64,000 nucleotides of DNA from Clostridia bacterium (GTDB lineage: Bacteria > Bacillota > Clostridia > Christensenellales > CAG-917): contig CAAFLX010000038.1 of the NCBI GenBank assembly GCA_900763875.1, forward strand, positions 18,429 through 82,428. Reading direction: 5' to 3'. The translations under genes and the position numbers were made by a program. The notes under the pieces are model-generated. The model was not told the origin of the DNA and ran no database searches. It saw only the letters and a program-made list of their open reading frames with translations. How positions within the stretch are numbered: the stretch's first letter is position 1; the number at the start of each line of letters is the position of its first letter. Positions 985-56,687 of this stretch are shown piece after piece.

Positions 985-1338
985 ATTACGCCCTGAATGA
1001 GTGTGATTTCTTCCTCTACAAGGGTTGAGCGGCATGTACTCTTAAATGCAACTTCCCCTTTCCTCACGTGTTTTCCCTATCACCGTTCCCCCTCTGCGTG
1101 CCTTGAGGGAACCCACGGTGACCGCGTAGCGGGGGACAACACTCAGCACTCACATAGATTGCTATCGTCCTCTTGTTATGCCACTGCGCTTTGTGCGCCG
1201 GCTTCGCAACAGAATGGCGCAGTCGCTTGTACTATCCGTCAAGTTCGGCGTTCGCTTTTCTCGCCGCCTTGCGGCTCGCACTTTGAATAGGCACATACCG
1301 TGTATAAGAACGCTCCGAATAAGCGTTCGTTTATCCGC
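985..1338 (+). repeat. R1 structured repeat, copy A
   Basis: The core ttcctcacgtgtt...gccactgcgctttgtgcgccggcttcgcaacagaatggcgcagtcgcttgtact...gccgccttgcggctcg is shared with four other loci in this window. Confidence 0.9.
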
Positions 1339-1375: not shown

Positions 1376-1625
1376 CAAAAACGGGATATTGAGATGAAGA
1401 GCAAGGAAGTGGCGTTTGGGCGGCAACCCTAATGTACAATGCGTACATGAGTCGACGAACAAATGTCACTGACACAGCTATTCGCTCAATAGCACGTTTA
1501 TAAAACGGGATATTTGGATGAATAACAAGGAAGGTTGCGTTCTGAACAGACAGGAGCGTACTTGTTGTACGTGACTGTTTGGGCAGACGCACCTGACGAA
1601 GTTAGTCGCCAAATAGCACGTTTTT
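1376..1625 (+). repeat. R2 long-hairpin array, 2 units (1376-1499 and 1502-1625)
   Basis: Each unit has the conserved flanks attgagatgaagaRcaagg and tgacRcagYtattcgctcaat around a variable self-complementary stem. The 3' arm gcacgttttta contains the ypeB stop codon. Confidence 0.9.
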
Positions 1626-3027
1626 ATGCTGTGCGCGAGCCAAGAGCATCGTCAATAACGTAGAGAATATTGCACTCCTCACCCGTGCGCGCGTCAATAT
1701 AAATATAATAAGTGCCGTTTTGTTGGCATTCAAACTCATAGGTGAGAAGTTCGATGGTTTCACGCAGGGGAATGAGGGCGAGCCTACCCTCGCGAACGGG
1801 CGGAACGGATACGGCTTGAGTGGCTTGGGCAAGAGAGATTGCGGGAGTTGCCAGAGTGCGTGCGCAATGGTTGAAAGCATAGTGCGAGGCATCGAAACCC
1901 GTGACAAACAAGTCGCCCTCGCGCACTTTGACCTTGACAAGGTCGGGATAGAGAATTACGCCGTCCTGCACGGGGGCAAGGTTGACGACGCACTCACCCT
2001 CGGACGAGGACGACCACACGACTTGCATATCCTCAAAACCTGCCGACTTGGCAAATGCCAAGGCGCGAGATTGGCAAGTGTCGTGCGCCTCGATGACGCT
2101 TGCGCGCTGCGCATCGCCGTTTGAGTTGAGCGACACGAGCATTCCGCCCTGCTTTGCGATTTGCACATAGGCACTGCCGCCGTCCGTTTGGACGATATAG
2201 TCAAGGGTTTTTATATCTCCCTCTCCCTCGCAAGAAAAGCGCACGCTTTGGGGATTGAGGCTTGCAAGACGCTTTTTCAGTGCGATTGCGCCCTGCTCGG
2301 CGGTGAGATTTTCACCGTGCAAACCCTTGACTTGCCTATTTTCAAGCGCGGACGAAAAAGGCCCGTCATATATCATTTCGGGATAGTTGAAACTTGGCTC
2401 GGTGAACGCCGAAAACGACTTGACAAACACGTCAAGCGCGCCGTCGTCGGACAAGTTGAGATTTGCCTCGTCAAGATTTTTTTGCACGCTTTCAAGGGAT
2501 TGTTGAAAGACGTCGGCAATCTCGCCCATTTTGTAGAGCCGCTCCCTGTCCTCTTTGCAAAGTTCTTTGCCCCCTGCAAGTTGCAAGGCGAGGGTGTGCG
2601 AATAGTCTCCTAGTTGGTTGACAAACTTTTGCGCCCTCAACACGCCGTCGTCGTTTGACTTGAACGTGGCAAGGTTTCCGCCTGCAAGCTCGCACGCGCT
2701 CCACACGTCATAGAGCAAAGATTGTTGCATCGCCATTGAGTTCGACACGCTGATTTTGCGCAAGTTTATGCCCAAATCGCTTGCGCCGTCAAGCAAATCG
2801 TAGTAGGCGCGCTGATATATTGCGTCCATTTGGCGTTGGTAGGAAAGGTGGGAGTTTAGGCTGGATTGCGCATAGTAGAGGGCAACCGACAGCCCCACGA
2901 TTGCGCAAGAGAACAAACCCATAATCGTGCCCAAAACCGCAATTTTGACGGTATTCGTTGAAGATTTAGGCTTGTTTTCCGCTTGTTTTTTTGCGGTTTT
3001 TCGTTGGTTTTGGTCTGTGTTTTTCAT
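1624..3027 (-). CDS. ypeB: Germination protein YpeB (YPEB N-terminal domain plus PepSY-like repeats)
   Basis: Sits immediately downstream of sleB. It has an N-terminal TM anchor and a YpeB-like sequence. The start was moved to the ATG at 3027, which is preceded by aaggagaa. Confidence 0.85.
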   Translation of the reverse strand: MKNTDQNQRKTAKKQAENKPKSSTNTVKIAVLGTIMGLFSCAIVGLSVALYYAQSSLNSHLSYQRQMDAIYQRAYYDLLDGASDLGINLRKISVSNSMAMQQSLLYDVWSACELAGGNLATFKSNDDGVLRAQKFVNQLGDYSHTLALQLAGGKELCKEDRERLYKMGEIADVFQQSLESVQKNLDEANLNLSDDGALDVFVKSFSAFTEPSFNYPEMIYDGPFSSALENRQVKGLHGENLTAEQGAIALKKRLASLNPQSVRFSCEGEGDIKTLDYIVQTDGGSAYVQIAKQGGMLVSLNSNGDAQRASVIEAHDTCQSRALAFAKSAGFEDMQVVWSSSSEGECVVNLAPVQDGVILYPDLVKVKVREGDLFVTGFDASHYAFNHCARTLATPAISLAQATQAVSVPPVREGRLALIPLRETIELLTYEFECQQNGTYYIYIDARTGEECNILYVIDDALGSRTA

Positions 3028-3038
3028 ATATTTTCTCC

Positions 3039-3743
3039 TTAACAAAAGGCGTGATTGCCTATGGATAGTTTGACGGTGCGAGAGAGCATCCACTTGCTTG
3101 TTGCCGTGCGCGGATTGTAATAGAATAGGCAACCGTAGCTAGGATCCCAACCGTTGAGAGCGTCCCTTGCGGCGTTGTAGGCGGATTGGTTGGGCTTGAG
3201 ATTGATTTGTCCGTCGCTCACGCAATCGAACGCGCCTTGTTGATATACAACACCTGCAACACTGTTGGGAAAGGACGAGGAGCGCACTCTGTTGAGCACC
3301 ACCGCCGCAACCGCCACTTGCCCTGCGTACGGCTCGCCCCTAGCCTCGCCGTAAACAACCCTTGCAAGAAGATTGAGGTCGGTTGACGTTGCGCCGCTTG
3401 AAGAACTCGTCGGCTTGCTTGACAGACTTATGCCGAGTGCCTGCGCCGTGCGTGTGCCGACAATTCCGTCGGCTGCAAGTCCGTTTTTCTTTTGAAACGC
3501 TATGACCGCCGATTTGGTTTTTGCGCCGAAAATGCCGTCCGCACTGCCTTTGAGATAGCCCCATTTTATGAGCTTTTGTTGCACGGCTTTGACTTGCTCG
3601 CCCCTTGCTCCTTGCTTTAACGTTGCGGCATCGGCAACGTTTTCACCGCTCGTTTGGCACAAAAAACCTGCAAGGGTTGCAAGCACCAGCACGGTGGCAA
3701 AAACCAAAATCAAGCCTGTTGTTGCACTTGATTTGCAATTCAT
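3039..3743 (-). CDS. sleB: Spore cortex-lytic enzyme SleB (PG-binding domain plus Hydrolase_2 domain)
   Basis: Contains the VYGEARGEPYAGQVAVAAVVLNRV and GAFDCVSDGQ motifs, a PG_binding_1-like segment and a signal sequence. Confidence 0.9.
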   Translation of the reverse strand: MNCKSSATTGLILVFATVLVLATLAGFLCQTSGENVADAATLKQGARGEQVKAVQQKLIKWGYLKGSADGIFGAKTKSAVIAFQKKNGLAADGIVGTRTAQALGISLSSKPTSSSSGATSTDLNLLARVVYGEARGEPYAGQVAVAAVVLNRVRSSSFPNSVAGVVYQQGAFDCVSDGQINLKPNQSAYNAARDALNGWDPSYGCLFYYNPRTATSKWMLSRTVKLSIGNHAFC

Positions 3744-7991: not shown

Positions 7992-8714
7992 ATGTACATT
8001 TACGGACGAAACCCCGTCAAAGAGGCATATATCGCCGGCAAAACCGTTGACAAAATATTCGTGCAAAAGGGCGAATTCGACCCTATGCTGTCCCGCGTTT
8101 TGAAACTTGCAAAAGAGGCGCGCACCGTGGTGAGCTACGTTGACAAAAATATGCTCGACAAGCTCGCGAACGGAGGCAATCACCAAGGCATCGTTGCCGC
8201 CGTCACCGACTTTTCATACTGCGACGTCGAGGATATAATCAACCTCGCAAAGCAAAAAGACGAACCGCTTTTGATTGTCATTTTGGACGGCATCACCGAC
8301 CCTCACAACCTCGGCGCAATCATAAGAAGCGCAGAATGTTTCGGGGCGCACGGCATCGTCATTCCCAAGCATCGCAGTGTGTCCGTCAACGACACCGTTG
8401 TCAAGGTTGCTTGCGGCGCAACCGAGCATATGCTCATTGCAAAAGTCACCAACATCAACGACACGATTCGCGCGCTCAAAGAGCAGAACGTGTGGGTTTA
8501 TGCAACCGATTTTGACGGTAAAGCCCCGAAAGACGCAAATCTCAACGGAAATCTCGCGCTTGTGATAGGCAGCGAGGGAGAGGGGATTCATCGCCTCACA
8601 AAAGACCTTTGCGACGATACGCTCACCATTCCGCAATACGGCAACGTCAACTCGCTCAACGCTTCGGTGGCGGCAGGAATCGTGCTTTACGAGGCTGTAA
8701 GACAAAGAAAATAA
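7992..8714 (+). CDS. rlmB: 23S rRNA (guanosine-2'-O)-methyltransferase RlmB (SpoU/TrmH family)
   Basis: Has a SpoU_sub_bind-like N-terminus and the motifs ILDGITDPHNLGAIIRSAE, LVIGSEGEGI and SLNASVAAGIVLYE. Confidence 0.85.
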   Translation: MYIYGRNPVKEAYIAGKTVDKIFVQKGEFDPMLSRVLKLAKEARTVVSYVDKNMLDKLANGGNHQGIVAAVTDFSYCDVEDIINLAKQKDEPLLIVILDGITDPHNLGAIIRSAECFGAHGIVIPKHRSVSVNDTVVKVACGATEHMLIAKVTNINDTIRALKEQNVWVYATDFDGKAPKDANLNGNLALVIGSEGEGIHRLTKDLCDDTLTIPQYGNVNSLNASVAAGIVLYEAVRQRK

Positions 8715-8723
8715 AGCGTGCGT

Positions 8724-8946
8724 GTATTGTCCTTGCGGACAGTGATATTGCAACTTCGTTGCAGTGATATGCACGCAGTGCGTGCGTGATATTGTCCTTG
8801 CGGACAATGAGATTGCGGCTGTGCCGCAGTTGTGGATAAATGATATCACTGCGTGATGATATCGTGCAGGCACGATGATATCGCCTGCGGCGGTGATGTC
8901 CAAACATGGTTTGGATTGCGGAAGTAGTTTTGCGGCTGTGCCGCAA
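8724..8946. repeat. R4 array: about 10 tandem short hairpins separated by TGATAT(C)
   Basis: Each unit has a 5-7 bp stem and a 2-4 nt loop, for example atcgtgc-ag-gcacgat. Perfect GATATC sites lie at 8842, 8858 and 8877. The array fills the rlmB to sigma-factor spacer. Confidence 0.85.
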
Positions 8947-12057: not shown

Positions 12058-12136
12058 CCGCGCAGAAAATCTTTGCTATCAGTTCGAGCACGGACAAAAA
12101 CTCCTGCCACAATTTCGCAAGATTGTCTGCTTGCTG
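12058..12136 (-). repeat. R3 hairpin repeat (isolated copy, inverted)
   Basis: The reverse complement matches caagcagaMaatcttgcgaaattgtggcaggagtttttg...aactgatagcaaagattttctgcg, which also occurs at 29079 and 34669. Confidence 0.85.
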
Positions 12137-12228
12137 CCCCCCTGAATTGGGGTTGCCTGTCAAGGGGCTTTTTCTTGCTCTTTATCCAATCTGTGGCGTT
12201 TAGTTTTTATATAATGATAACATATCGC

Positions 12229-21111: not shown

Positions 21112-21187
21112 GGGGATATAGCTCAGTTGGTAGAGCGCCTGATTTGCATTCAGGAGGTCCTCGGTTCGAATCCGTGTATCTCCACCA
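21112..21187 (+). tRNA. tRNA-Ala (anticodon UGC)
   Basis: I folded the cloverleaf by hand. It has a G3:U70 pair, the anticodon loop ttTGCat, the T-loop ttcgaat and an encoded CCA. Confidence 0.9.
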
Positions 21188-21195
21188 CTCAATAT

Positions 21196-21272
21196 TGGAT
21201 TGTAGCTCAGTAGGTTAGAGCACCACCCTGATAAGGTGGGGGTCGGTGGTTCGAGTCCACTCAATCCAACCA
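21196..21272 (+). tRNA. tRNA-Ile (anticodon GAU)
   Basis: I folded the cloverleaf by hand. The acceptor stem is tggattg/caatcca, the anticodon loop is ctGATaa, and CCA is encoded. Confidence 0.9.
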
Positions 21273-21336
21273 AAAGCACTCTCAAAAAGAGTGCTTTTTC
21301 TTTGCCTTTTCGTGTACTTTGACGATTGCATCGTCC
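21253..21336 (+). repeat. 84-bp direct repeat, copy 1 (last 20 nt of tRNA-Ile, its terminator, and 36 nt beyond)
   Basis: Identical to 21417-21500 except for one mismatch (cgtgTact versus cgtgCact). Confidence 0.95.
21275..21300 (+). terminator. Rho-independent terminator after the tRNA pair (duplicated at 21439-21464)
   Basis: The stem agcactct/agagtgct is followed by a tttt run. Confidence 0.8.
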
Positions 21337-21416
21337 ACCTGTCGATGGCAGTCGAACCACCTTTCGGTCTGCACGCTGCGCTCTTGCAAATTCCATTTGC
21401 TCGCTTGCTGTTGAGC

Positions 21417-21500
21417 GAGTCCACTCAATCCAACCAAAAGCACTCTCAAAAAGAGTGCTTTTTCTTTGCCTTTTCGTGCACTTTGACGATTGCATCGTCC
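21417..21500 (+). repeat. 84-bp direct repeat, copy 2 (orphan tRNA-Ile 3' end plus terminator)
   Basis: See 21253-21336. No tRNA body precedes this copy. Confidence 0.95.
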
Positions 21501-22063
21501 TCTGCCCAAGCAAAAATCGACGCTAAGGCAACGGCAACACGCATCTTGCGTATTGTCGAGTGCCTTGCTAGATTTTTGCTTCACTAACCGCGCAACCCCT
21601 CTTCACTCTCAAATCAAGACGGACAAAACTCATGCCGCAACTCCGTGCGTGGGCTTGCTTGGTGTTTAGCGTGCAACGCACGCAAGCGGATAAACGAACA
21701 CTCATTCAAGGCGTTCTTATACACGGAATTTGCTTATTCGGAGTGCGAGCCGCAACGGCGGCGAGAAAAGCGAACGCCGAACTTGACGGGTAGTACAAGC
21801 GACTGCGCCATTCTGTTGCGAAGCCGGCGCACAAAGCGCAGTGGCATAACAAGAGGACGATACTTATCTATGTGAGTGCTGAGTGTGTCCCCACGCGGAG
21901 CGGACGCCGTGGGTTCCCTTTTAAGGGGGAACGGCGGTGGGGGAAACACGTGAGGAAGGGGGAAATTGCATTTAAGAGTACACCCCACCCACCCCTTGTA
22001 GAGGAAGAATCTACACTTATTCGGGGCGTACTTATTAACGGAATGTGCTTATTCGGAGTGCGA
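21501..22063 (-). repeat. Inverted composite: R1 copy B (21686-22063) plus the downstream scaffold (21501-21685)
   Basis: The reverse complement aligns with 34281-34875. The R3 and R5 positions hold different sequence. Confidence 0.85.
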
Positions 22064-22099
22064 ATCGCAAAGCGGCGAGTAATTGATGCCGAGCGTTGC

Positions 22100-28921: not shown

Positions 28922-28965
28922 CCGAAAAACCGCATAAAACATGCAAACGGAGTGACACGGGAAAA

Positions 28966-29078
28966 ATGATATCACTTTGTGATGATATCGTGCATTGCAC
29001 GATGATATCGCACTTGGTGCGATGATATCCAACCGATGTTTGGATTGTGGAATATTCCACTTGCGCCAAAGGCGCACA
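28966..29078 (+). repeat. R4 array of GATATC-separated short hairpins
   Basis: GATATC sites lie at 28968, 28984, 29004 and 29024. The hairpins are atcac/gtgat, atcgtgc/gcacgat, atcgcac/gtgcgat and atccaa/ttggat, followed by two further palindromes. Confidence 0.85.
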
Positions 29079-29158
29079 CACCAAGCAGAAAATCTTGCGA
29101 AATTGTGGCTGGAGTTTTTGCCCCTGCTCAAAACTGATAGCAAAGATTGTCTGCGCGG
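29079..29158 (+). repeat. R3 hairpin repeat
   Basis: The stem gcagaaaatcttgc/gcaaagattgtctgc encloses a conserved loop. Confidence 0.85.
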
Positions 29159-29187
29159 TAGAAATTGTGAGAACAAGTGCGGTCGGT

Positions 29188-29270
29188 GGCAACCGCCACT
29201 GCGTTTTCGTTTCTATTTGGGGGATTCCCACGTCGCTTTGCTCCTCTGAATGACAATCTGGGCGGTTGCC
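29188..29270 (+). repeat. R5 hairpin with a conserved 63-nt loop box
   Basis: The stem ggcaaccgcc/ggcggttgcc encloses tttgggggattcccacgtcgctttgctcctctgaatgaca. Confidence 0.8.
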
Positions 29271-29286
29271 ATAACCGCAACGCCGT

Positions 29287-29657
29287 TTGAGCAAGTGAGA
29301 TGAAGAACAAGAAAGAGCCTGCCAACATAGACAGGAGCGTACTCTGTGTACGTGACTGTTTATGGGGCAGACTCTGACACAGTTATTCGCTCAATATTTT
29401 ATAGAATAGTGTGCCAAATCGATAAAGAGCGAGGAAAAACCCCTTGCGCGGCAACCCTAATGTACATAAGGTACATGAGTTGACGAGCAAAGGGCTTTAA
29501 CAATGCTATTTGCAGAGATATTGTTTGTTGTAATAAAGCCGCTATTGAGATGAAGAACAAGGAAGAGCCTGCCAACATAGACAGGAGCGTACTTGGTGTA
29601 CGTGACTGTTTATGGGGCAGGCTCTGACACAGTTATTCGCTCAATAGCGGCTTTATT
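29287..29657 (+). repeat. R2 long-hairpin array, 3 units
   Basis: The units are approximately 29287-29396, 29406-29515 (variant apex) and 29533-29657. The last 3' arm, atagcggctttatt, contains the hypA stop codon. Confidence 0.9.
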
Positions 29658-34280: not shown

Positions 34281-34647
34281 TTGAAGTTGCACATACCGTG
34301 CATAATCACGCTACGAATGAGTGTAACTTCTTCCTCTACAAGGAGTTGGGCGTGAACCCTTAATTCAATTTCCCCCTTCCTCACGTGTTTCCCCCACCGC
34401 CGTTCCCCCTTAAAAGGGAACCCACGGCGTCCGCTCCGCGTGGGGCAACACTCAGCACTCGCATAGATTGCTATCGTCCTCTTATTATGCCACTGCGCTT
34501 TGTGCGCCGGCTTCGCAACAGAATGGCGCAGTCGCTTGTACCGTCTGTCAAGCTCGGCGTTCGCTTTTCTCGCCGCCTTGCGGCTCGCACCCTGAATAAG
34601 CACATTCCGTTAATAAGAACGCCCAGAATGAGTGTTCGCTTATCCGC
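34281..34647 (+). repeat. R1 structured repeat, copy C
   Basis: A full element including both flanking direct repeats, gcacataccgtgcataat... and gcacattccgttaataag... Confidence 0.9.
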
Positions 34648-34668
34648 TTGCGTGCAAAGCACGCTAAA

Positions 34669-34748
34669 CACCAAGCAGAAAATCTTGCGAAATTGTGGCA
34701 GGAGTTTTTGCACCTACCTAAAACTGATAGCAAAGATTTTCTGCGCGG
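34669..34748 (+). repeat. R3 hairpin repeat
   Basis: The stem is gcagaaaatcttgc/gcaaagattttctgc. Confidence 0.85.
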
Positions 34749-34778
34749 TTAGCAGACTGAAAACCTAGCAAGGCTCTT

Positions 34779-34860
34779 GGCAATCGCCACTATGCTTACG
34801 CTTCTATTTAGGGGATTCCCACGTCGCTTTGCTCCTCTGAATGACATTAGAGGCGATTGC
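34779..34860 (+). repeat. R5 hairpin with the conserved loop box
   Basis: The stem ggcaatcgcc/ggcgattgc covaries with the copy at 29188. The same loop box is present: tttaggggattcccacgtcgctttgctcctctgaatgaca. Confidence 0.8.
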
Positions 34861-34875
34861 AATTGCCTTAGCGAC

Positions 34876-35251
34876 GATTTTCAGTCGGATGAAGAACACG
34901 GAAAAGCCTGCCAACATAGACAGGAGCGTACTTGTCGTACGTGACTGTTTATGGGGCAGGCTTTGACAAAGTTATTCGCCAAATCATCTTTAATCTTGTA
35001 AAAACGCACTATTTGGATGAAGAACAAGAAAACGCCCTTTTGCGAACTCGCCTAGCGTACTTGAAGTACGTGACGGGTGAGCAAAAGGGCGTTGCCGCAG
35101 TTATTCGCCAAATCATTTATAACTTTGTAAAAACGCACTATTTGGATGAAGAACACGGAAAAGCCTGCCAACATAGACAGGAGCGTACTTGTCGTACGTG
35201 ACTGTTTATGGGGCAGGCTTTGACAAAGTTATTCGCCAAATAGTGCGTTTT
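34876..35251 (+). repeat. R2 long-hairpin array, 3 units
   Basis: The units are approximately 34876-34985, 35000-35115 and 35128-35251. The last 3' arm, atagtgcgttttt-a, contains the stop codon of the ABC/FtsX gene. Confidence 0.9.
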
Positions 35252-38200
35252 TAGTCTACGCGGAGAGCATCCACAACGTTCTTCCTCGACGCCATAATCG
35301 CAGGAATTATGCCTGAGATTATCGTCAGTGCCAAGCTGAGGCAGACGAGAATGAAGGCGTGGAGCGGATGGAAGTGCAACAGCGAGCCGATGCCTGCAAC
35401 TGCTTTGATGATGACGGACACGATTGGACAGAGAATGTAGGTGACGAGAATACCTATGAGCCCGCTTGTGAGTCCGATGAGCGAGGTTTCGGCGATAAAG
35501 ACGTTGCGTATATCCTGCTTTCGCGCGCCGATTGCGCGGAGTATGCCGATTTCACGAGTACGCTCGACAACGGAGTTGGAGGTGATGACGCCGATCATAA
35601 CGGTGGATACGACAAGAGATATTGCCGCAACCGCGATGAGCATTGCAGATACGAGGTCGAGCGTGCTGCGCATATTGACAAGGAACATTTCGGACACGTC
35701 AAAGTAGCCAATCTCGCCCTTGCCGTCGTGTTGCCATGCCTCGATATACTTGCCCGACTTAACCTTTTGATTGCTGTCGTTGGGGAACACGGTAACGTAA
35801 TACGGGCTTCTATCCGCTCCGATTGCTCTCATAAAGTAGGTGTATTGGAGCGCGGGAACGCCGCTCATTGCATAAAGTGCCGTCGAGCCTTGTTGCGAAA
35901 AGTCAACTTCGTTGTTCAAGCGCACGTTCTTGAAAACCGTCTTTTTGCCGGTGGTTGTGTTTTTGTCAAGTTCGAGTTGGCGTTTGACAAGAGTGCTCTC
36001 GCTCGCGCTCTTGAGGGTGCTTTCGGCAAGCGCGCTCGTATAGCATATGGACGAGGTGACGTAGGTGTGTTCGGTTTGCTTTTTCGCTCTTATAACGCCG
36101 ACAACTTTGATTTCATCGTTGGAATCCTCATACATCTTTTTGAGCAACGCTTGAGATTCGGTTGAATCGTCATAGCTCCACATCAACGTGCTGCTTGCTT
36201 TTTCGCTGAACGGGTCAAGAAAGCTGCTGCTACCGCCGTCTTCTTCCTCCGTTTTGCTTTTTCCGATGCCGACGTTGTTGAGATACTTGCCGCTTGCCTC
36301 GTCATAGACGTAATAGTTGTCGTTTCCCACAAGTTTGAAGGTTTGACCGAGGAAATATTCGTACGGCACGTTGTCGGTGTCCATTTTTTTGGGTTTGCCC
36401 TCGTCGTCAAAAACTATATTGCCGTTTGCGTCCTTTTCGTAAACGTCGATGCCAAATGCGTTCAGCACGTCTTTGGATATGGTGTTGTCGGAGTTTACGC
36501 AAAGCAAAACTTCGTTTTTGTTTTTGGGATAACGACTGCCCTCGCCCACAAAATCATAGGAGCGCATCGTGACTTCTTCGCTTGCGACAAGTTCTTGCCA
36601 ATACTTGGCTTGAAGTCCGTTTTCGCCGAGTACGGTGGTTGCAATCGCCGTGGTTGTCAAGGGCTTCGGTTGTTGCGATACGTCCTTGTAGGTGACGTTG
36701 CCGTCGGCGTCGTACGTCTTGCGCACAAGGTTGTACCTCAAGCCGTAGGAGATGCCGAGAGCAGTGTAATAATCCTTGGGCATCGCTTTCATATAATCGG
36801 CAAATTCCTCGGTCAACTCGTTCTTTTGAACGCCGTTCATAAAGGAAGTGACCATTGACAAAGTCATCTTTGCAATCATACTGTTTGCGCTGCCTGCGCT
36901 GCCCGACACTTTGATGTCGTCCGTATCGGGAGCGGGCTTTGTCGAGCCTTGACCGGACGGTCTTTCCATCATGCTGGACATCAAGTCCATAATCGCGCTG
37001 CTTGACACGTTGTATTGATAAACGCCAAGAGGCACGCCTGCGAGCAAGTCGTTTTCCATTCTTGCAAGGTAGAGATTGAATCCGTTGTAAATGGACAGCA
37101 CGAGCGCAAGACCTATTATGCCGATTGCGCCTGCAAAAGACGTGAGCAACGTGCGGCGTTTTTTGGACACGAGGTTTTTAAGGCTCAATCCAAACGCCAT
37201 ACCCGGACTCATAGACGTGGGCTTGAACGCCCTGTCCCTCTTCTTTTTCTTTTTGGAAAGGCTGTTGAGGCCGAGCTTGTCAAAGAGCGCGTCCGTCTCC
37301 TCTCCGACGTTTTTCATTGCGTTTTTACGCTTGCGATTCGACACCTTTTTCTTTTTGGGCGCGTCCTCGCAATGTTGTTCGGTTTGAGGGTTTATGCTGT
37401 CATTTTGAGCGGTTGGAGTGCTTGTTTGGACATTTTGTGCATCGTCAACGTCGTCTGTCGTAACGATGCCGAACACTGATTTTTCGTCGTCGCTTGCGAT
37501 TGAAATTTCCTCGTCTTGCACCGTGGACACGTCGTCCGTTTGCGCCGTTTCGCCGCTCTCGACGTCCTCTTTTTTCTCGATTTCGGGATAGAAAGGATTG
37601 GTATCTTCGATGAGCTGTCCGTCCTTAAAACGGCAAATACGCGTGGCGTATTGATAGGCAAGTTCGGCGTTGTGCGTGACCATAATGACGAGGCGATTTT
37701 TGGAAATCTCTTGCAATATATCCATAACCTGCACGCTAAGCTCGCTGTCCAACGCGCCCGTCGGCTCGTCCGCCAAAATGATTTTGGGGTCGTTGACGAT
37801 TGCACGCGCAATCGCTACGCGCTGCATTTGACCGCCCGAAAGTTGGTTGGGCTTTTTGTCAATCTCCTCGTGCATATTGACTTTGTGAAGAGCGGCAACC
37901 GCCTTTGCTCTTCTCGCCTTTTTCTTTTCGCCCACAAGGCTCAAGGCAAGCTCGACGTTTTCAAGTACGGTGAGGTGAGGAATGAGGTTGTAGCTTTGAA
38001 AAACAAAACCGATGGTTGCGTTGCGGTAGGCGTCCCAGTGCTCGTCGTCGAAATCGGCAGTGGAAACTCCGCCGATGACGAGATCGCCCGACGTATATCT
38101 GTCAAGACCGCCTATGATGTTGAGCATGGTCGTTTTGCCGCAACCGCTCGGGCCTAGAATCGCCACAAACTCGCTTTCGCGGAAGTTGAGTGACACGCTC

Positions 38201-39351: not shown

Positions 39352-39731
39352 TGGGGGGGGGTGAACTCTAAATTGCAACTTCCCCCTTCCTCACGTGTTT
39401 TGTTCGTACTCTACAAGAGTTGGGCGGGGTGTACTCTAAATTGCAACTTCCCCTTTCCTCACGTGTTTTCCCCATCACCGTTCCCCCTTAAAAGGGAACC
39501 CACGGTGACCGCGTAGCGGGGGACAACACTCAGCACTCACATAGATAAGTATCGTCCCCTTGTTATGCCACTGCGCTTTGTGCGCCGGCTTCGCAACAGA
39601 ATGGCGCAGTCGCTTGTACTATCCGTCAAGTTCGGCGTTCGCTTTTCTCGCCGCCTTGCGGCTCGTGTTCCGTCTTTGAAGTTACACATACCGTGTATAA
39701 GAACGCCCTGAATAATTGTTCGTTTATCCAC
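39352..39731 (+). repeat. R1 structured repeat, copy D (with an internal 68-bp tandem duplication)
   Basis: ctctaaattgcaacttccccYttcctcacgtgtttt occurs at 39366 and 39434. The core is otherwise as in copies A and E. Confidence 0.9.
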
Positions 39732-39732
39732 A

Positions 39733-39812
39733 ATCCAAACAAAGTTTGGATATCATCGTGCAACGCACGATATCATCACGAAGTGATATCACCGCAGCAG
39801 GCGATATCATTT
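39733..39812 (-). repeat. R4 array of GATATC-separated short hairpins (inverted relative to 28966)
   Basis: GATATC sites lie at 39749, 39769, 39785 and 39803. The linker is ATC rather than GAT. The array abuts the M28 peptidase stop codon at 39811. Confidence 0.85.
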
Positions 39813-51261: not shown

Positions 51262-51384
51262 AAAACCGCGATATTGAGATGAAGAACAAGGAAAAACCGC
51301 TCGCACAGATAGGAGCGTACTTATCGTACGTGACTATTTGTGTGAGCGGTTTTGACACAGTTATTCGCTCAATAGCGCGGTTTT
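51262..51384 (+). repeat. R2 long hairpin, single unit
   Basis: The outer stem is aaaaccgcgatattgag/ctcaatagcgcggtttt. The 3' end contains the stop codon of the phosphoesterase gene. Confidence 0.9.
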
Positions 51385-52867
51385 AGTGTTGGGTGGCGTA
51401 ATCGTTTGCCCCCTCAAAATCCGCATAATAGTTCTTGGCGGCGCAATCAAAATTGCCTTGTGCGTCAAGAGTGATGACGGTGCAGCCGCGTTGAGCGGTC
51501 TGTTTGAAGATGCCGGGATAGGCAAGGTAGTCAACGGACATGCTGTAAGTCAAGCGAATGGAGCGGTCAGCACCGGCAGGAGTGTAGTTGACGGAGAAGT
51601 TGTTGAGGTGGTCGTGGCCGCAGAACACGCCTTGCATGCCGTGAGCAAGTCCTTTGGCAAAGAGGTCGTCCTCGCCGTAGCCGCAGGATACGCCGTAGGT
51701 GCGCACGCCGTTTTTGGGCTTGTCGGTTTCGTGCATTTCGCCGTAGATAAGCTCGGTCGTGCCTATGTCGGTGGTGATTTTGTCACCGGGTTTGACAGCA
51801 TAGTCCTTGTTGCCTGCCTTATGCTCTTTTTCGGTGGTGTCGATGACATTTGCCCACGCGTCACGGAACTCTCTGAGCGGAATGTGGAAGAAGGAAAGGT
51901 TTTTGACTTCCTTACCGTTGTTGGCGGCTTTGAGCTTGTCCATCTCGGTTGCGTACCAATCGGTTTGTTTTTGATGGATATTGTCGTATTTCCATGCCAT
52001 GCCGAGATAGTCGCCGTCGGTGTAGCTGTGGCTGTCGAACATAACGAGGGCTTGATTGATTGAGCCGTCGCTGTTTTTGACGACGATCATATCGTTGCCA
52101 AAGCCGATAGAGTCCTTGCTCATGACGTCCTTGGTGTCGCAAAAACCTGCTCTAAACAAGCAATATTTGAAGTTTTCATCGGCATAGTAGTTGCAGATTT
52201 CGTCACGAGAATAGAGGCTGTAAAGCTCGGTGTCGTGGTTGCCGAACGTAAACGTCCAGTACACGCCGAGGTTTTCCATCATCTTGGCAAAGATTCTCGT
52301 TGCGTTGAGGTTGTTGAACGTGCCTGCTTGCACGGGGACGGGATATGCGATATCGCCGGTGACGACCACGAGGTCGGGTTTAGTTTGGCGCACCATAGTT
52401 GCAACGGCGTTCATTGCCCAGTTGTCTTTCGAGCCAGAGAACGCGCCGCCGCCGATATGTACGTCGGTCAACTGCAAAATCTTAAATTCCCTGCCGTCGG
52501 GTTTTGTAAACGTCCAATAACCCAAGTTTTCGTCGTAAGTCGGCTTGAGTTGGTCGGTGTACTCAACCTTGTCAAAGCTGTCGGCGAGTTTGAGATGTGC
52601 GGTGGTGTAAACCGACGAAGCGATTGCACAGCCGCTGAAGAATATCACAAGCGCGAGAACCACGCATCCCGTGATAATCAACGCTTTTGCCGTTCTTTTC
52701 TTTTTCTGTTCGGGGGTGAGGTTTTTCTTTGCTTTTTTGCATTTTTTGGCTTTTTTGCCGTCAACGTCTTTGCAGACGTCCTCTTGCCCGTTTAGGTCTT
52801 GACTTTCGTCGCAGACTTGTTGTGATTCTTCTTGCGCGATTTCTGAATTTTTGATTTCGTCGCTCAT
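51383..52867 (-). CDS. Membrane-anchored metallophosphoesterase (calcineurin-like)
   Basis: Contains LTDVHIGG, VVTGDIAYP, GNHDTE and GHDH. Confidence 0.85.
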   Translation of the reverse strand: MSDEIKNSEIAQEESQQVCDESQDLNGQEDVCKDVDGKKAKKCKKAKKNLTPEQKKKRTAKALIITGCVVLALVIFFSGCAIASSVYTTAHLKLADSFDKVEYTDQLKPTYDENLGYWTFTKPDGREFKILQLTDVHIGGGAFSGSKDNWAMNAVATMVRQTKPDLVVVTGDIAYPVPVQAGTFNNLNATRIFAKMMENLGVYWTFTFGNHDTELYSLYSRDEICNYYADENFKYCLFRAGFCDTKDVMSKDSIGFGNDMIVVKNSDGSINQALVMFDSHSYTDGDYLGMAWKYDNIHQKQTDWYATEMDKLKAANNGKEVKNLSFFHIPLREFRDAWANVIDTTEKEHKAGNKDYAVKPGDKITTDIGTTELIYGEMHETDKPKNGVRTYGVSCGYGEDDLFAKGLAHGMQGVFCGHDHLNNFSVNYTPAGADRSIRLTYSMSVDYLAYPGIFKQTAQRGCTVITLDAQGNFDCAAKNYYADFEGANDYATQH

Positions 52868-56119: not shown

Positions 56120-56560
56120 TTGAAGTTGCACATTGCGTGTATAAGTGCGCTTTGAATAGTGAAGATTCTTCCTCTACAAGGGGTTGGCGTTGTGCACCCT
56201 TAATTAGATGCGCCCCCTCTTTCCCTATCGGGCTTTGTTCGTCCTCTACAAGAGTTGGACGGCGAGAACTCTAAATGTAATTTTCCCCTTTCCTCACGTG
56301 TTTTCCCCATCACCGTTCCCCCTCTGCGTGCCTTGAGGGAACCCACGGTGACCGCGTAGCGGGGGACAACACTCAGCACTCACATAGATAAGTATCGTCC
56401 CCTTGTTATGCCACTGCGCTTTGTGCGCCGGCTTCGCAACAGAATGGCGCAGTCGCTTGTACTATTCGTCAAGTTCGGCGTTCGCTTTCTCGCCGCCTTG
56501 CGGCTCGTGTTCCGTCTTTGAAGTTGCACATACCATTTATAAATGCACTTTGAAAGTGTT
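56120..56560 (+). repeat. R1 structured repeat, copy E
   Basis: A full element with a partially duplicated 5' module. It has a 1-nt deletion (cgctttctcgcc) relative to the other copies. Confidence 0.9.
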
Positions 56561-56687
56561 ATAAAGCCCGCAAAATCGATGCATAACGCGAAAGCACCCT
56601 TTGATTGGCAAACCCAGCGTACAATGACGTACGTGGTTTGACAAGCAAAGGGTGCTGACAAAGTTAGGCGCGATTTTGCGGCTTTAT
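56561..56687 (+). repeat. R2 long hairpin, divergent single unit
   Basis: The outer stem is ataaagcccgcaaaatcg/cgattttgcggctttat and the inner stem is gcaccctttg/caaagggtgc. The 3' arm overlaps the SDR gene stop codon. Confidence 0.85.

What the first reader, a model, noticed from the sequence alone, without database searches (positions are those of the whole stretch)
1376..1625. R2: ten covarying ~125-nt long hairpins at five loci, every array ending on the TAA stop codon of a minus-strand gene
The arrays lie at 1376-1625 (2 units), 29287-29657 (3), 34876-35251 (3), 51262-51384 (1) and 56561-56687 (1), all in the same orientation. Each unit has five parts. (a) A locus-specific outer stem with an A-tract and a T-tract: aataaagccgctat/atagcggctttatt, aaaaacgcactat/atagtgcgttttt or aaaaccgcgatat/atagcgcggtttt. 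(b) A conserved helix that covaries as ttgag/ctcaa or tttgg/ccaaa. (c) Conserved asymmetric segments gatgaagaacaagg and tgacacagttattcg. (d) A long inner stem whose sequence is completely different between units but always complementary: gagcctgcc/ggcaggctc, aaaccgctcgcac/gtgtgagcggttt, aacgcccttttgc/gcaaaagggcgtt or gcaccctttg/caaagggtgc. (e) In most units, a conserved apex agcgtac-N5-gtacgtgac. Units 1376-1499 and ~29406-29515 carry a different apex (gcggcaaccctaatgtaca...), and 56561-56687 has a variant. Several G:T appositions recur at the same stem position, so the plus-strand RNA folds better than the minus-strand RNA. The 3' arm of the last unit always contains the stop codon of the converging or upstream minus-strand gene: ypeB at 1624, hypA at 29653, ABC/FtsX at 35251, the phosphoesterase at 51383 and the SDR at 56684. 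I see three possible readings. They may be giant bidirectional intrinsic terminators recruited from a repeat family. They may be a mobile hairpin that targets the loops of native terminators, which would explain the locus-specific A/T-tract outer stems. Or they may be 3'-UTR or antisense RNA modules.
Basis: seen in the sequence. Interest (0 to 1): 0.78.

Follow-up and report, generated by a model that had tools for sequence, protein, structure and literature searches.

The report
Hairpin repeats anchored on stop codons
The ten long hairpins are real copies of an apparently undescribed repeat family, found in several bacterial phyla, that always sits directly behind a gene in one orientation with the gene's stop codon built into the base of the hairpin; what installs it there is unknown.

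Summary
A covariance model finds exactly ten units at the five stated loci, all on the + strand, and each array ends on the TAA of a minus-strand gene.

The family is large. I found 167 copies in 47 assemblies of uncultured gut Clostridia. The same invariant core, GATGMAKARC...GYTAKKCGC, also occurs in Selenomonadaceae-like, Patescibacteria-like and deltaproteobacterial contigs. Rfam, plasmid and viral collections gave no match.

- **Placement:** the 3' end abuts the stop codon of an opposite-strand gene in 93 of 131 copies that have a neighbouring gene on that side. The 5' side is unconstrained.
- **Stop codon:** it closes a roughly 17-bp outer stem, and its type is subfamily-specific (TAA, TGA or TAG).
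- **Orthologues:** those with and without the element end at the same residue.
- **Turnover:** units are lost, replaced or decayed between strains and species.
- **Pairing:** variable stems pair Watson-Crick with almost no wobble.

My best reading is a REP/REPIN-like DNA repeat read as a folded single strand. In this genome it probably doubles as a bidirectional terminator. That role is not general, because other subfamilies lack T-tracts. The loop-insertion idea is not supported. How copies land exactly on stop codons is unexplained.

The parts
1376..1499 (+). Unit U1. It is the distal unit of the ypeB array and has the type B apex (GGCAACCCTAATGTAC..GTACATGAG).
   Evidence: CM hit at 1373-1505, 122.7 bits. 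Folds at -44.4 kcal/mol, z = -6.1.
1500..1625 (+). Unit U2. It is gene-proximal, and its 3' outer arm ATAGCACGTTTTTA contains the ypeB stop codon.
   Evidence: CM hit at 1506-1629, 101.4 bits. Folds at -57.8 kcal/mol. The sequence was read.
1624..1626 (-). TAA stop codon of ypeB (ORF 1624..3132), lying inside the outer stem of U2.
   Evidence: ORF list. Pfam YPEB_PepSY1-2 and YPEB_N.
29287..29404 (+). Unit U3. It is the distal unit of the hypA array and lacks a paired outer stem.
   Evidence: CM hit at 29279-29406, 116.4 bits. Alignment A1.
29407..29528 (+). Unit U4. It is the middle unit, has the type B apex, and is the most diverged of the ten.
   Evidence: CM hit, 78.5 bits.
29535..29657 (+). 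Unit U5. It is gene-proximal, with outer stem AATAAAGCCGCTAT/ATAGCGGCTTTATT that contains the hypA stop codon (29653-29655, minus strand).
   Evidence: CM hit, 136.5 bits. Folds at -75.6 kcal/mol, z = -12.8. HypA Pfam match. The orthologues L112 and L084 keep the outer stem but carry a different interior.
34876..34993 (+). Unit U6. It is the distal unit of the ABC/FtsX array and its interior is nearly identical to that of U8.
   Evidence: CM hit, 119.8 bits. U6 and U7 are absent in strain contig L248.
35003..35120 (+). Unit U7. It is the middle unit, with a different inner stem (ACGCCCTTTTGC). The same class is the only unit present in orthologue L003.
   Evidence: CM hit at 34996-35124, 117.8 bits. 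Alignment A5.
35131..35253 (+). Unit U8. It is gene-proximal, and its outer stem AAAAACGCACTAT/ATAGTGCGTTTTTA contains the stop codon of the ABC_tran+FtsX gene (35251-35253, minus strand).
   Evidence: CM hit, 142.7 bits. Pfam.
51262..51385 (+). Unit U9. It is a single unit whose outer stem contains the stop codon of the metallophosphoesterase gene (51383-51385, minus strand).
   Evidence: CM hit, 128.6 bits. Folds at -70.2 kcal/mol. A strain whose protein is 98% identical carries a different unit plus an arm remnant at this site.
56561..56687 (+). Unit U10. It is a single unit of the GATGCATAAC/GTTAGGCGC core variant, and its outer stem contains the stop codon of the SDR gene (56684-56686, minus strand).
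   Evidence: CM hit, 113.2 bits. Folds at -66.5 kcal/mol. The orthologue in L027 has a unit of another class at the same stop codon.
12130..12210 (-). Truncated eleventh copy. It keeps the 5' outer arm, the core GATAAAGAGCAAGAAA and part of a type B interior, and is fused to a copy of another repeat (the D16 type).
   Evidence: Found in the half-motif scan and read. Weak CM hit at 12062-12206 on the minus strand, 11.1 bits.

Best explanation
R2 is the local lineage of a phylum-spanning superfamily of imperfect palindromes about 125 nt long. They behave like REP/REPIN-type non-autonomous DNA repeats.

**Anatomy.** Each copy has four parts:
- an invariant asymmetric core: 5' G-A(bulge)-T.G-G-M-A-G.A-AAC, an unpaired spacer, and 3' GTT-A-TKCGC;
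- a variable but perfectly paired inner stem;
- a GTAC/GTAT-type apex;
- an outer stem of about 17 bp whose outermost triplet is the stop codon of the gene lying on the opposite strand.

**Shown.**
- The fold is conserved, with compensatory changes across four bacterial groups.
- Copies sit immediately 3' of genes, in one orientation only.
- The stop-codon type is characteristic of each subfamily, while the protein's C-terminus is unchanged.
- Copies are gained, lost, replaced, shuffled and decayed between species and even between strains.
- Arrays change length by recombination between units.

**Inferred.**
- The element is maintained and spread at the DNA level, by copy-and-replace or gene conversion among copies and possibly by transposition.
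- A trans-acting protein, not identified, reads it as a folded single strand through the invariant core. The folded strand is the one antisense to the gene, which carries the invariant T.G/U.G.
- In this low-GC genome the A-tract/T-tract outer stem makes the gene-proximal unit serve as the hairpin of a bidirectional intrinsic terminator and 3'-end protecting structure for the anchor gene.

**Not explained.** I cannot say how copies come to lie exactly on stop codons.
For: **Reality and fold.**
- Ten units of 78-143 bits, + strand only.
- In a 52-sequence cross-phylum alignment, 29 of 38 pairs show compensatory change.
- In that alignment 88.9% of cells pair, against 65% when shuffled and 31-43% when slid. 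The covariation score is 0.584 against 0.16.

**Breadth.**
- 167 copies in 47 assemblies of uncultured Clostridia.
- The same core occurs in a Patescibacteria MAG, a 483-kb deltaproteobacterial contig and a DeMMO MAG.
- It occurs in more than 120 metagenome stretches. These include a subfamily whose host SecA is about 80% identical to Selenomonas/Mitsuokella.

**Placement.**
- The opposite-strand stop codon abuts the 3' end in 93 copies, and 28 more copies lie 16-400 nt from such a stop, several of them array-internal. Only 4 same-strand stops abut the 5' end.
- The first base of the stop lies 14-18 nt from the core in 69 of 87 copies.
- The same rule holds in the other subfamilies.
- Both orientations occur within one locus, each obeying the rule (L029, L087). 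Orientation therefore follows the gene, not replication.

**Stop codon as part of the element.**
- TAA 88% against 52% background in the low-GC clade.
- TGA 77-78% against 45-53% in the high-GC and Selenomonadaceae subfamilies.
- TAG 71% against 28% in the Patescibacteria-like subfamily.
- Filled and empty orthologues end at the same residue.

**DNA-level dynamics.**
- Orthologous stop codons carry units with different inner stems and apex types.
- Decayed and half copies exist.
- A strain with a 98% identical protein has a different unit at the U9 site.
- A strain with an identical protein has 1 unit instead of 3, a 257-nt indel between identical units.
- Wobble pairs are rare and symmetric in the variable stems: G.T 62 against A.C 53 of about 3900.

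**Terminator-like role here.**
- The distal neighbour is convergent in 41 of 71 cases.
- Plain terminators occupy empty orthologous sites.
- A/T tracts are seen.
Against: - **No mobilising protein found.** No transposase or recombinase recurs next to copies in 240 loci.
- **One weak candidate only.** The single RAYT-like ORF is below the family cut-off (51 against 80 bits) and lies 4 kb from a copy.
- **Not like a classical MITE.** There is no direct target duplication, and the termini are the most variable part.
- **Placement unexplained.** No known transposition mechanism accounts for placement exactly on true stop codons. The palindrome sometimes extends 6-17 nt into the coding sequence.
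- **RNA signals.** The invariant U.G and the G.U/A-U alternation at one apex pair are what a functional RNA would show.
- **Terminator role not general.** T-rich tails are absent from most copies outside the low-GC clade.
- **No expression data.** None were available.
Confidence: 0.45

Rival explanations
1. The element is a cis-acting structured RNA. It would be either the hairpin at the very start of the anchor gene's 3' UTR or an antisense or convergent-transcript hairpin. A conserved protein would bind the invariant core to control mRNA stability, termination or ribosome release at the stop codon. Spread through the genome would be secondary.
For: - Only translation or transcription 'knows' where a stop codon is, and the rule is tied to gene direction.
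- The outer-stem length of about 17 nt is constant in all subfamilies. From my own knowledge, this is close to the mRNA length covered 3' of a ribosome at a stop codon.
- U.G is invariant in 52/52 sequences, and one apex pair alternates G.U and A-U.
- The distal arm tracks orthologue-specific changes in the last codons (L007 and L115).
- E. coli REPs within 15 nt of a stop codon are reported to stall ribosomes (PMC12306157, citing Liang et al.).
Against: - The wobble-bearing strand is antisense to the anchor gene, so the mRNA-sense hairpin has C.A and C.U mismatches in the core.
- Variable stems show almost no G.U and no strand bias, which is unusual for RNA under structural selection.
- No promoter-like site lies upstream on the element strand at two loci.
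- Interiors turn over rapidly and are mosaic, and tandem arrays and half copies are repeat-like.
- No Rfam family matches.
Confidence: 0.25
2. The units are simply unusually long bidirectional intrinsic terminators. They look alike because terminators in this clade share ancestry.
For: - All five gene-proximal units in the window have A- and T-tracts flanking a GC-rich stem base.
- They sit at the ends of transcription units and are enriched between convergent genes.
- Plain terminators occupy the empty orthologous sites.
Against: - T-rich tails occur in only 33-48% of low-GC copies and 3-5% of the Selenomonadaceae subfamily.
- The core is invariant across four phylum-level groups.
- Orientation is strictly single although the hairpin is nearly symmetric.
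- The stop-codon type is subfamily-specific.
- Arrays hold 2-3 units.
Confidence: 0.1
3. A mobile hairpin core inserts into the loops of pre-existing native terminators, so the outer stems are the old terminator stems.
For: - Outer stems are better conserved between orthologues than interiors. An example is the hypA locus in the window, L112 and L084.
- Units within one array share the same outer arms.
Against: - Empty orthologous sites carry terminators that begin 18-45 nt after the stop and share no sequence with the outer stems of the filled orthologues.
- Outer stems begin on the stop codon and have a constant length of about 17 bp in every subfamily.
- The stop-codon type goes with the subfamily.
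- In the Patescibacteria-like and Selenomonadaceae subfamilies the outer arm is itself conserved between copies.
Confidence: 0.08
4. The units are attC-like, structure-specific recombination sites. They would be folded bottom-strand hairpins at the 3' ends of genes, used by a tyrosine recombinase.
For: - They share a topology with attC: a helix ending in AAC/GTT (conserved in 105-134 of 135 copies) next to an unpaired spacer, then a variable stem.
- The better-folding strand is antisense to the ORF.
- The stop codon lies inside the site.
- Sequence subfamilies are lineage-specific and the length is about 125 nt.
Against: - The R-box purine/pyrimidine pattern (RYYYAAC/GTTRRRY) is not met.
- The hairpin continues about 22 bp beyond the R-like helix.
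- The genes between copies are syntenic housekeeping genes, not cassettes.
- Tandem units have no ORF between them.
- A crude motif scan of 1533 ORFs found no recombinase signature.
Confidence: 0.07

Closest known systems
REP / BIME elements and REPINs (REP doublets forming hairpins) mobilised by RAYT transposases
   Same: - Both are high-copy extragenic palindromes at gene 3' ends, often in short arrays.
- Many E. coli REPs lie within 15-20 nt of a stop codon (PMC12306157).
- REPINs are hairpins about 100 nt long with conserved bases and less conserved interiors (from my own knowledge).
- Both are thought to be recognised as folded single-stranded DNA.
- Both show lineage-specific sequence families.
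   Different: - The conserved halves here are not themselves small palindromes.
- There is no GTAG/CGTC head.
- The invariant core is shared across phyla, whereas REP families are species-specific.
- Orientation relative to the gene is strictly single.
- The stop codon is part of the stem, with a subfamily-specific codon type.
- No RAYT was linked to the element. The one sub-threshold RAYT-like ORF lies 4 kb from a copy in one contig.
ERIC/IRU, Correia (NEMIS), RUP and BOX: MITE-like intergenic repeats about 100-150 nt long
   Same: - They have a similar size, about 125 nt.
- They are imperfect palindromes co-transcribed with neighbouring genes.
- They have documented effects on termination and mRNA stability (from my own knowledge).
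   Different: - Those elements have conserved terminal inverted repeats and TA target duplications, and they insert in either orientation.
- Here the termini are the variable part, no direct duplication is seen, and placement is on the stop codon in one orientation.
Integron attC sites
   Same: - Both are structure-defined sites with little sequence conservation apart from AAC/GTT next to an unpaired spacer.
- Both have a variable terminal structure.
- Both sit at the ORF 3' end, often overlapping the stop codon.
- In both, the functional strand is antisense to the ORF.
   Different: There are no cassettes, no integrase and no RYYYAAC/GTTRRRY pattern. There is an extra outer stem, and copies are dispersed among syntenic core genes.
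Rho-independent (intrinsic) bidirectional terminators
   Same: In this window the units are GC-rich stems flanked by an A-tract and a T-tract, at the ends of transcription units and between convergent genes.
   Different: The stem is about 55 bp with fixed internal loops. The sequence core is invariant. Most copies outside the low-GC clade have no T-tract.

Membership tests
Intrinsic terminator | A stable GC-rich hairpin immediately followed by a U/T-rich tract | tested here: inconclusive
   By reading the sequence, this is met for the five gene-proximal units of the window. Family-wide, a T-rich 10-nt tail occurs in 33-48% of low-GC copies, 21-29% of high-GC relatives and 3-5% of the Selenomonadaceae subfamily.
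Intrinsic terminator | Location at the end of a transcription unit | tested here: met
   The distal neighbour is convergent in 41 cases. It is co-directional in 30, mostly more than 100 nt away.
Intrinsic terminator | Transcript 3' ends map to the tract | not testable with these tools
   No expression or Term-seq data were available.
REP/REPIN with RAYT | Short (20-40 nt) palindromic REP units with a conserved GTAG or CGTC head (PMC3733652) | tested here: not met
   The conserved halves GATGMAKARCRMGRAA and TGACRMWGYTAKKCGC are not self-complementary and carry no such head.
REP/REPIN with RAYT | High-copy extragenic location near gene 3' ends and stop codons | tested here: met
   93 copies abut a stop codon. 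There are ten units per 64 kb in the window.
REP/REPIN with RAYT | A cognate RAYT gene in the same genome, typically flanked by the repeats | tested here: inconclusive
   A motif scan of 1533 ORFs from 240 loci found one RAYT-like ORF, L175:6813-7388. It scores 51.3 bits on NF047646 against a cut-off of 80. It has no Pfam hit and is not flanked by copies. Whole genomes could not be scanned.
MITE (TIR transposon derivative) | Conserved terminal inverted repeats at the element ends | tested here: not met
   The outermost 17 bp are the most variable part and covary between copies.
MITE (TIR transposon derivative) | Direct target-site duplication | tested here: not met
   The flanks are inverted complements (TAA...TTA, TGA...TCA, TAG...CTA), not direct repeats.
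MITE (TIR transposon derivative) | An autonomous element with the same ends around a transposase gene | tested here: not met
   Half-motifs far apart did not enclose a shared ORF, and no recurring protein cluster was found. The search covered only the fetched loci.
Integron attC | R'' RYYYAAC and R' GTTRRRY boxes | tested here: not met
   AAC/GTT is present and paired (128, 105+23 and 132 of 135). The preceding and following bases are GMAG and ATKC, which is not YYY/RRR.
Integron attC | Arrays of ORF-attC cassettes next to an integron integrase | tested here: not met
   Genes between copies are syntenic core genes shared at 76-87% nucleotide identity with other species. Tandem units have no ORF between them. 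No recombinase motif was found (a crude test).
Described RNA families (Rfam 15) | A match to a curated covariance model | tested here: not met
   No family matches the units at gathering or E-value thresholds, in the window or in six loci of other subfamilies.

The most novel reading that the evidence does not exclude
This would be a new class of structure-specific genetic element that brings its own stop codon and is installed exactly at the last sense codon of genes, in one orientation. Installation would be coupled to transcription or translation of the target gene, or would use an unknown hairpin-specific recombinase. It would be shared by Clostridia, Negativicutes, Patescibacteria and Deltaproteobacteria, and it would renew itself within species.
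Probability: 0.2. Interest if true: 0.9.

Novelty: new variant of a known kind. Interest (0 to 1): 0.74.

Why it matters
If this holds, a single conserved nucleic-acid architecture marks the 3' ends of many genes in distant bacterial phyla, including abundant uncultured gut Clostridia and candidate-phyla-radiation bacteria.

- **A selection or mechanism not yet described.** The stop codon is built into the stem. The codon type is set by the element, while the protein end is untouched. No known transposition or terminator model explains this.
- **Practical consequences.** The repeats break short-read assemblies at gene ends. They provide hypervariable strain markers. They could bias 3'-UTR, terminator and small-RNA predictions in metagenomes.
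- **Testability.** The Selenomonadaceae subfamily offers cultivable relatives in which the question can be tested directly.

Tried and rejected
**Searches that found nothing**
- Rfam at gathering and permissive thresholds, on the window and on six loci of other subfamilies. Only tRNAs and Gut-1 matched, and nothing matched the units.
- Viral contigs with the family pattern: 0 hits.
- Plasmid collection by blastn with an R2 unit and with a Selenomonadaceae-type doublet: no match.
- Literature searches for repeats of this kind in these taxa, or anchored on stop codons. Nothing specific turned up beyond the E. coli REP/stop-codon work.

**Ideas tested and set aside**
- A small ORF starting at the conserved ATG of GATGAAG. 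I rejected this because unit lengths differ by 1-3 nt, so the frame and the stop are not conserved.
- A box C/D or K-turn, a hammerhead or hairpin ribozyme, or a sigma-70 promoter formed by the TTGACA in the 3' arm. I rejected these by inspection: spacing and partner motifs are absent, and Rfam gave no hit.
- A partner protein, sought by all-against-all clustering of 1533 ORFs. Only housekeeping paralogues recurred, plus spurious ORFs inside another repeat.
- A dedicated promoter on the element strand. None was predicted at two loci.

**Limits of the strain-level look-ups**
- Look-ups by exact protein for HypA gave only the identical strain.
- The SDR look-up found no record.
Full report

An alignment of the ten units has 70% mean column identity. 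RNAalifold predicts one long hairpin of 34 pairs, and 20 of those pairs show compensatory changes.

Single units fold at -44 to -76 kcal/mol, with z-scores of -6 to -13 against dinucleotide shuffles. The + strand folds 4-16 kcal/mol better than its complement.

I built a covariance model from the ten units and scanned both strands of the window without filters. It returns exactly those ten units, all on the + strand, at 78-143 bits. The best unrelated hit scores 16.7 bits.

Each array ends on the TAA of a minus-strand ORF. Pfam confirms the five gene identities:
- YpeB, ABC_tran+FtsX and adh_short;
- HypA;
- Metallophos.

A half-motif scan also found an eleventh, truncated copy on the minus strand near 12130-12210. 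It is fused to another repeat.

**2. How far does the family reach?**

Almost all are uncultured gut Clostridia. They are labelled Christensenella sp. UBA..., Firmicutes CAG:475, UMGS..., or Stercoripulliclostridium, and one is a closed 1.65-Mb MAG chromosome. The model finds 167 non-redundant copies in these loci plus the window.

Three hits lie far outside this clade: a Patescibacteria MAG, a 483-kb contig of a deltaproteobacterial MAG, and a deep-mine MAG. All three show the same fold and the same core.

It resolves three further subfamilies, each with its own conserved outer arm:

| Subfamily | Source | Approx. GC | Outer arm |
|---|---|---|---|
| G1 | human gut | 58% | GTGACGCGGAAGTTTG |
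| E1 | groundwater | low | TAGGACTTACGTGTTTG |
| E2 | peat and soil | 55-60% | CCGGCCGAGGGGATTTTT |

The G1 host's SecA is about 80% identical to Selenomonas and Mitsuokella SecA. E1 resembles the Patescibacteria hit.

A 52-sequence alignment across all groups keeps one architecture:
- 38 pairs, of which 29 show compensatory change;
- 88.9% of cells paired, against 65% for shuffled partners and 31-43% for slid partners;
- covariation score 0.584 against 0.16.

The invariant positions in that alignment are:
- G-C, U.G (52/52) and G-C;
- A-U and C-G of an AAC/GTT triplet;
- a lone G-C inside the unpaired spacer;
- the first A-U of the inner stem.

No Rfam family matches any subfamily. Viral contigs and the plasmid collection gave no match.

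**3. The placement rule**

I used a simple long-ORF gene call on every locus. The neighbour on the element's 3' side is an opposite-strand gene whose stop codon overlaps the element in 93 copies. A further 28 copies lie 16-400 nt from such a stop, and several of these are internal units of arrays. The 5' side shows no preferred distance or strand, and only 4 same-strand stops lie within 30 nt of it.

The first base of the stop codon lies 14-18 nt beyond the conserved core in 69 of 87 anchored copies. The palindrome normally ends within 0-3 nt of the stop. The same peak, at 12-20 nt, appears in G1 and E1. The median outer palindrome is 16-17 bp in every subfamily with enough copies to measure.

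Two copies in opposite orientations can sit a few hundred bases apart, each on the stop codon of its own gene (L029, L087). Orientation therefore follows the gene, not the replication direction.

The distal neighbour is convergent in 41 of 71 cases and otherwise usually more than 100 nt away. So copies mark the ends of transcription units.

**4. The stop codon belongs to the element**

Anchor genes use a stop codon typical of the subfamily, not of the genome:

| Subfamily | Stop codon at anchor genes | Background in the same loci |
|---|---|---|
| Low-GC clade (R2) | TAA 88% | 52% |
| High-GC relatives | TGA 78% | 53% |
| G1 | TGA 77% | 45% |
| E1 | TAG 71% | 28% |

Orthologous proteins with and without the element nevertheless end at the same residue. 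For example, the ProRS-like gene ends ...YFARAY-TGA in the window without the element, and ...YYAKAY-TAA in L015 with it.

Some ORFs read through the outer arm and stop at the TGA or TAG of helix b, or at the TAA of GAATAAC.

In 14% of copies the palindrome extends at least 4 nt into the coding sequence, against 1% in the control, and it reaches up to 17 nt. In the orthologues L007 and L115 the distal arm mirrors lineage-specific synonymous differences in the last codons.

**5. Dynamics**

*Between species.* Blocks syntenic with the window at 76-87% nucleotide identity allow orthologous comparison.
- At the same stop codon, different species carry units with unrelated inner stems and even the other apex type, while the outer arm is often retained.
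- Inner-stem classes recur at many loci and in many genomes, in different combinations with spacer, R-like box and helix b. The copies are therefore mosaics.
- Some sites are empty. They carry ordinary terminators 18-45 nt after the stop, with no sequence relation to the outer stems of the filled orthologues.
- Other sites hold decayed copies. L012 has lost the apex relative to L087, and L039 is a half copy followed by a plain terminator.

*Within the window's own species.*
- A strain whose metallophosphoesterase is 98% identical has an arm remnant plus a unit of a different class at the U9 site.
- A contig encoding the identical ABC/FtsX protein has one unit instead of three. This is a clean 257-nt difference between the identical U6 and U8.

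Short-read contigs regularly break inside the first unit.

**6. Which strand and which molecule?**

In 135 copies, the variable stems hold 62 G.T and 53 A.C appositions among about 3900 Watson-Crick pairs. The cross-phylum alignment gives 57 against 47. Wobble pairs are thus rare and show no strand bias. This fits complementarity maintained in DNA, or arms always transferred together, better than RNA-level selection.

Two positions are asymmetric. They favour the element (+) strand, which is antisense to the anchor gene:
- the invariant T.G, where the complement would be C.A;
- an apex pair that alternates G.U (29) with A-U (17).

The core also has a bulged A and a G.A apposition on this strand.

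Family-wide, the + strand folds only modestly better: -61.1 against -57.0 kcal/mol on average, and better in 117 of 160 copies.

No promoter-like site precedes the arrays on the + strand at two loci.

**7. Terminator or not?**

In the window, every gene-proximal unit has a GC-rich stem base between an A-tract and a T-tract. Together with the positional data, a bidirectional terminator or 3'-end protecting role in this genome is a reasonable inference.

It cannot be what defines the family. A T-rich tail follows only 33-48% of low-GC copies and 3-5% of G1 copies. Termination also needs neither the invariant core nor a single orientation.

**8. Search for a partner**

Clustering 1533 ORFs from all loci found no family that recurs beside the element across subfamilies.

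A motif scan found one RAYT-like ORF in a Patescibacteria-like contig, 4 kb from a copy:
- it scores 51 bits on NCBIfam REP_Tyr_transpos, against a cut-off of 80;
- it has no Pfam hit;
- it has no flanking copies.

This is a lead, not evidence.

**9. Interpretation**

The best-supported description is a REP/REPIN-like dispersed palindromic DNA repeat. It has an unusually conserved, asymmetric core and an unusually strict relation to stop codons. It is renewed by copy-and-replace or gene conversion and by unequal recombination. In this low-GC clade it has been co-opted as the terminal hairpin of transcription units.

Proximity of REPs to stop codons has a precedent in E. coli (PMC12306157). The following features, as far as my searches reached, do not:
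- single orientation relative to the gene;
- the stop codon sitting inside the stem;
- a stop-codon type set by the subfamily;
- a core shared across phyla.

The rivals remain open. They are a functional RNA read by a conserved protein, a plain terminator, insertion into terminator loops, and an attC-like site. The report sections weigh each one. The precise installation on stop codons is the main unexplained fact.

Noticed in passing
window 8740-8818 (+), 28964-29033 (+), 39745-39812 (-): There are three copies of the Rfam Gut-1 RNA motif, scoring 56.9, 46.7 and 41.8 bits against a gathering score of 50. Each lies 0-43 nt downstream of the stop codon of a same-strand gene, so the motif behaves here as a 3'-UTR or terminator-region element. 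At 39811 it occupies the gene end that carries an R2 unit in the orthologues L063 and L074.
   Followed up: partly
window 1008-1336, 34281-34645, 39354-39729, 56120-56554; inverted at 21685-22070: This is a second repeat family (D1, about 250 nt, plus a TTGAAG..TATAAG box, D5). It lies on the distal side of R2 arrays in three of the five loci and is also present in other species (L037, L034, L047, L013). It contains a GAGCCGCAAGGC hairpin. It has no Rfam match, and the ORFs across it look spurious.
   Followed up: partly
window 29078-29288, 34668-34879, and about 12060-12130 (-): This is a third repeat (D16 plus D13, about 200 nt; the two long copies are 80-93% identical). It lies directly upstream of the distal R2 unit in two arrays, and it is fused to the truncated R2 copy near 12.1 kb.
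   Followed up: no
window 21112-21272 and 21252-21336 / 21416-21500: A tRNA-Ala(TGC) and tRNA-Ile(GAT) pair stands without adjacent rRNA genes. An 85-nt segment that starts in the 3' end of tRNA-Ile is repeated at 99% identity 164 nt downstream. This may be the scar of an integration or a duplication.
   Followed up: no
L077:6448-6616 (-); L154 about 8250-8420 (-); L191:2423-2592 (+): These copies carry a nested insertion of 22-40 nt, itself a small hairpin, inside the apex or inner stem. The element can therefore itself be a target for another small palindromic insert.
   Followed up: no
L175:6813-7388 (-): This is a 192-aa ORF with a PNHLH HUH motif and a sub-threshold match to NCBIfam REP-associated tyrosine transposase (51.3 bits, cut-off 80). 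It lies in a 128-kb groundwater contig that also carries an E1-type copy 4 kb away.
   Followed up: partly
L138:2671, L168:4594, L183 (-), L152, L234: In the Selenomonadaceae-type subfamily, several 3' halves (TGACACAGCTATGCGCCAAAATCCCG..) are joined to unrelated 5' sequences. One contains a GAGCCGCAAGGC hairpin like that of the D1 repeat. This suggests composite or chimeric elements.
   Followed up: no
L118-L120, L241-L246, L249-L250: Short-read assemblies of this species end 54-76 nt after the anchor gene's stop codon, inside the first repeat unit. The family therefore systematically fragments assemblies at gene 3' ends.
   Followed up: partly
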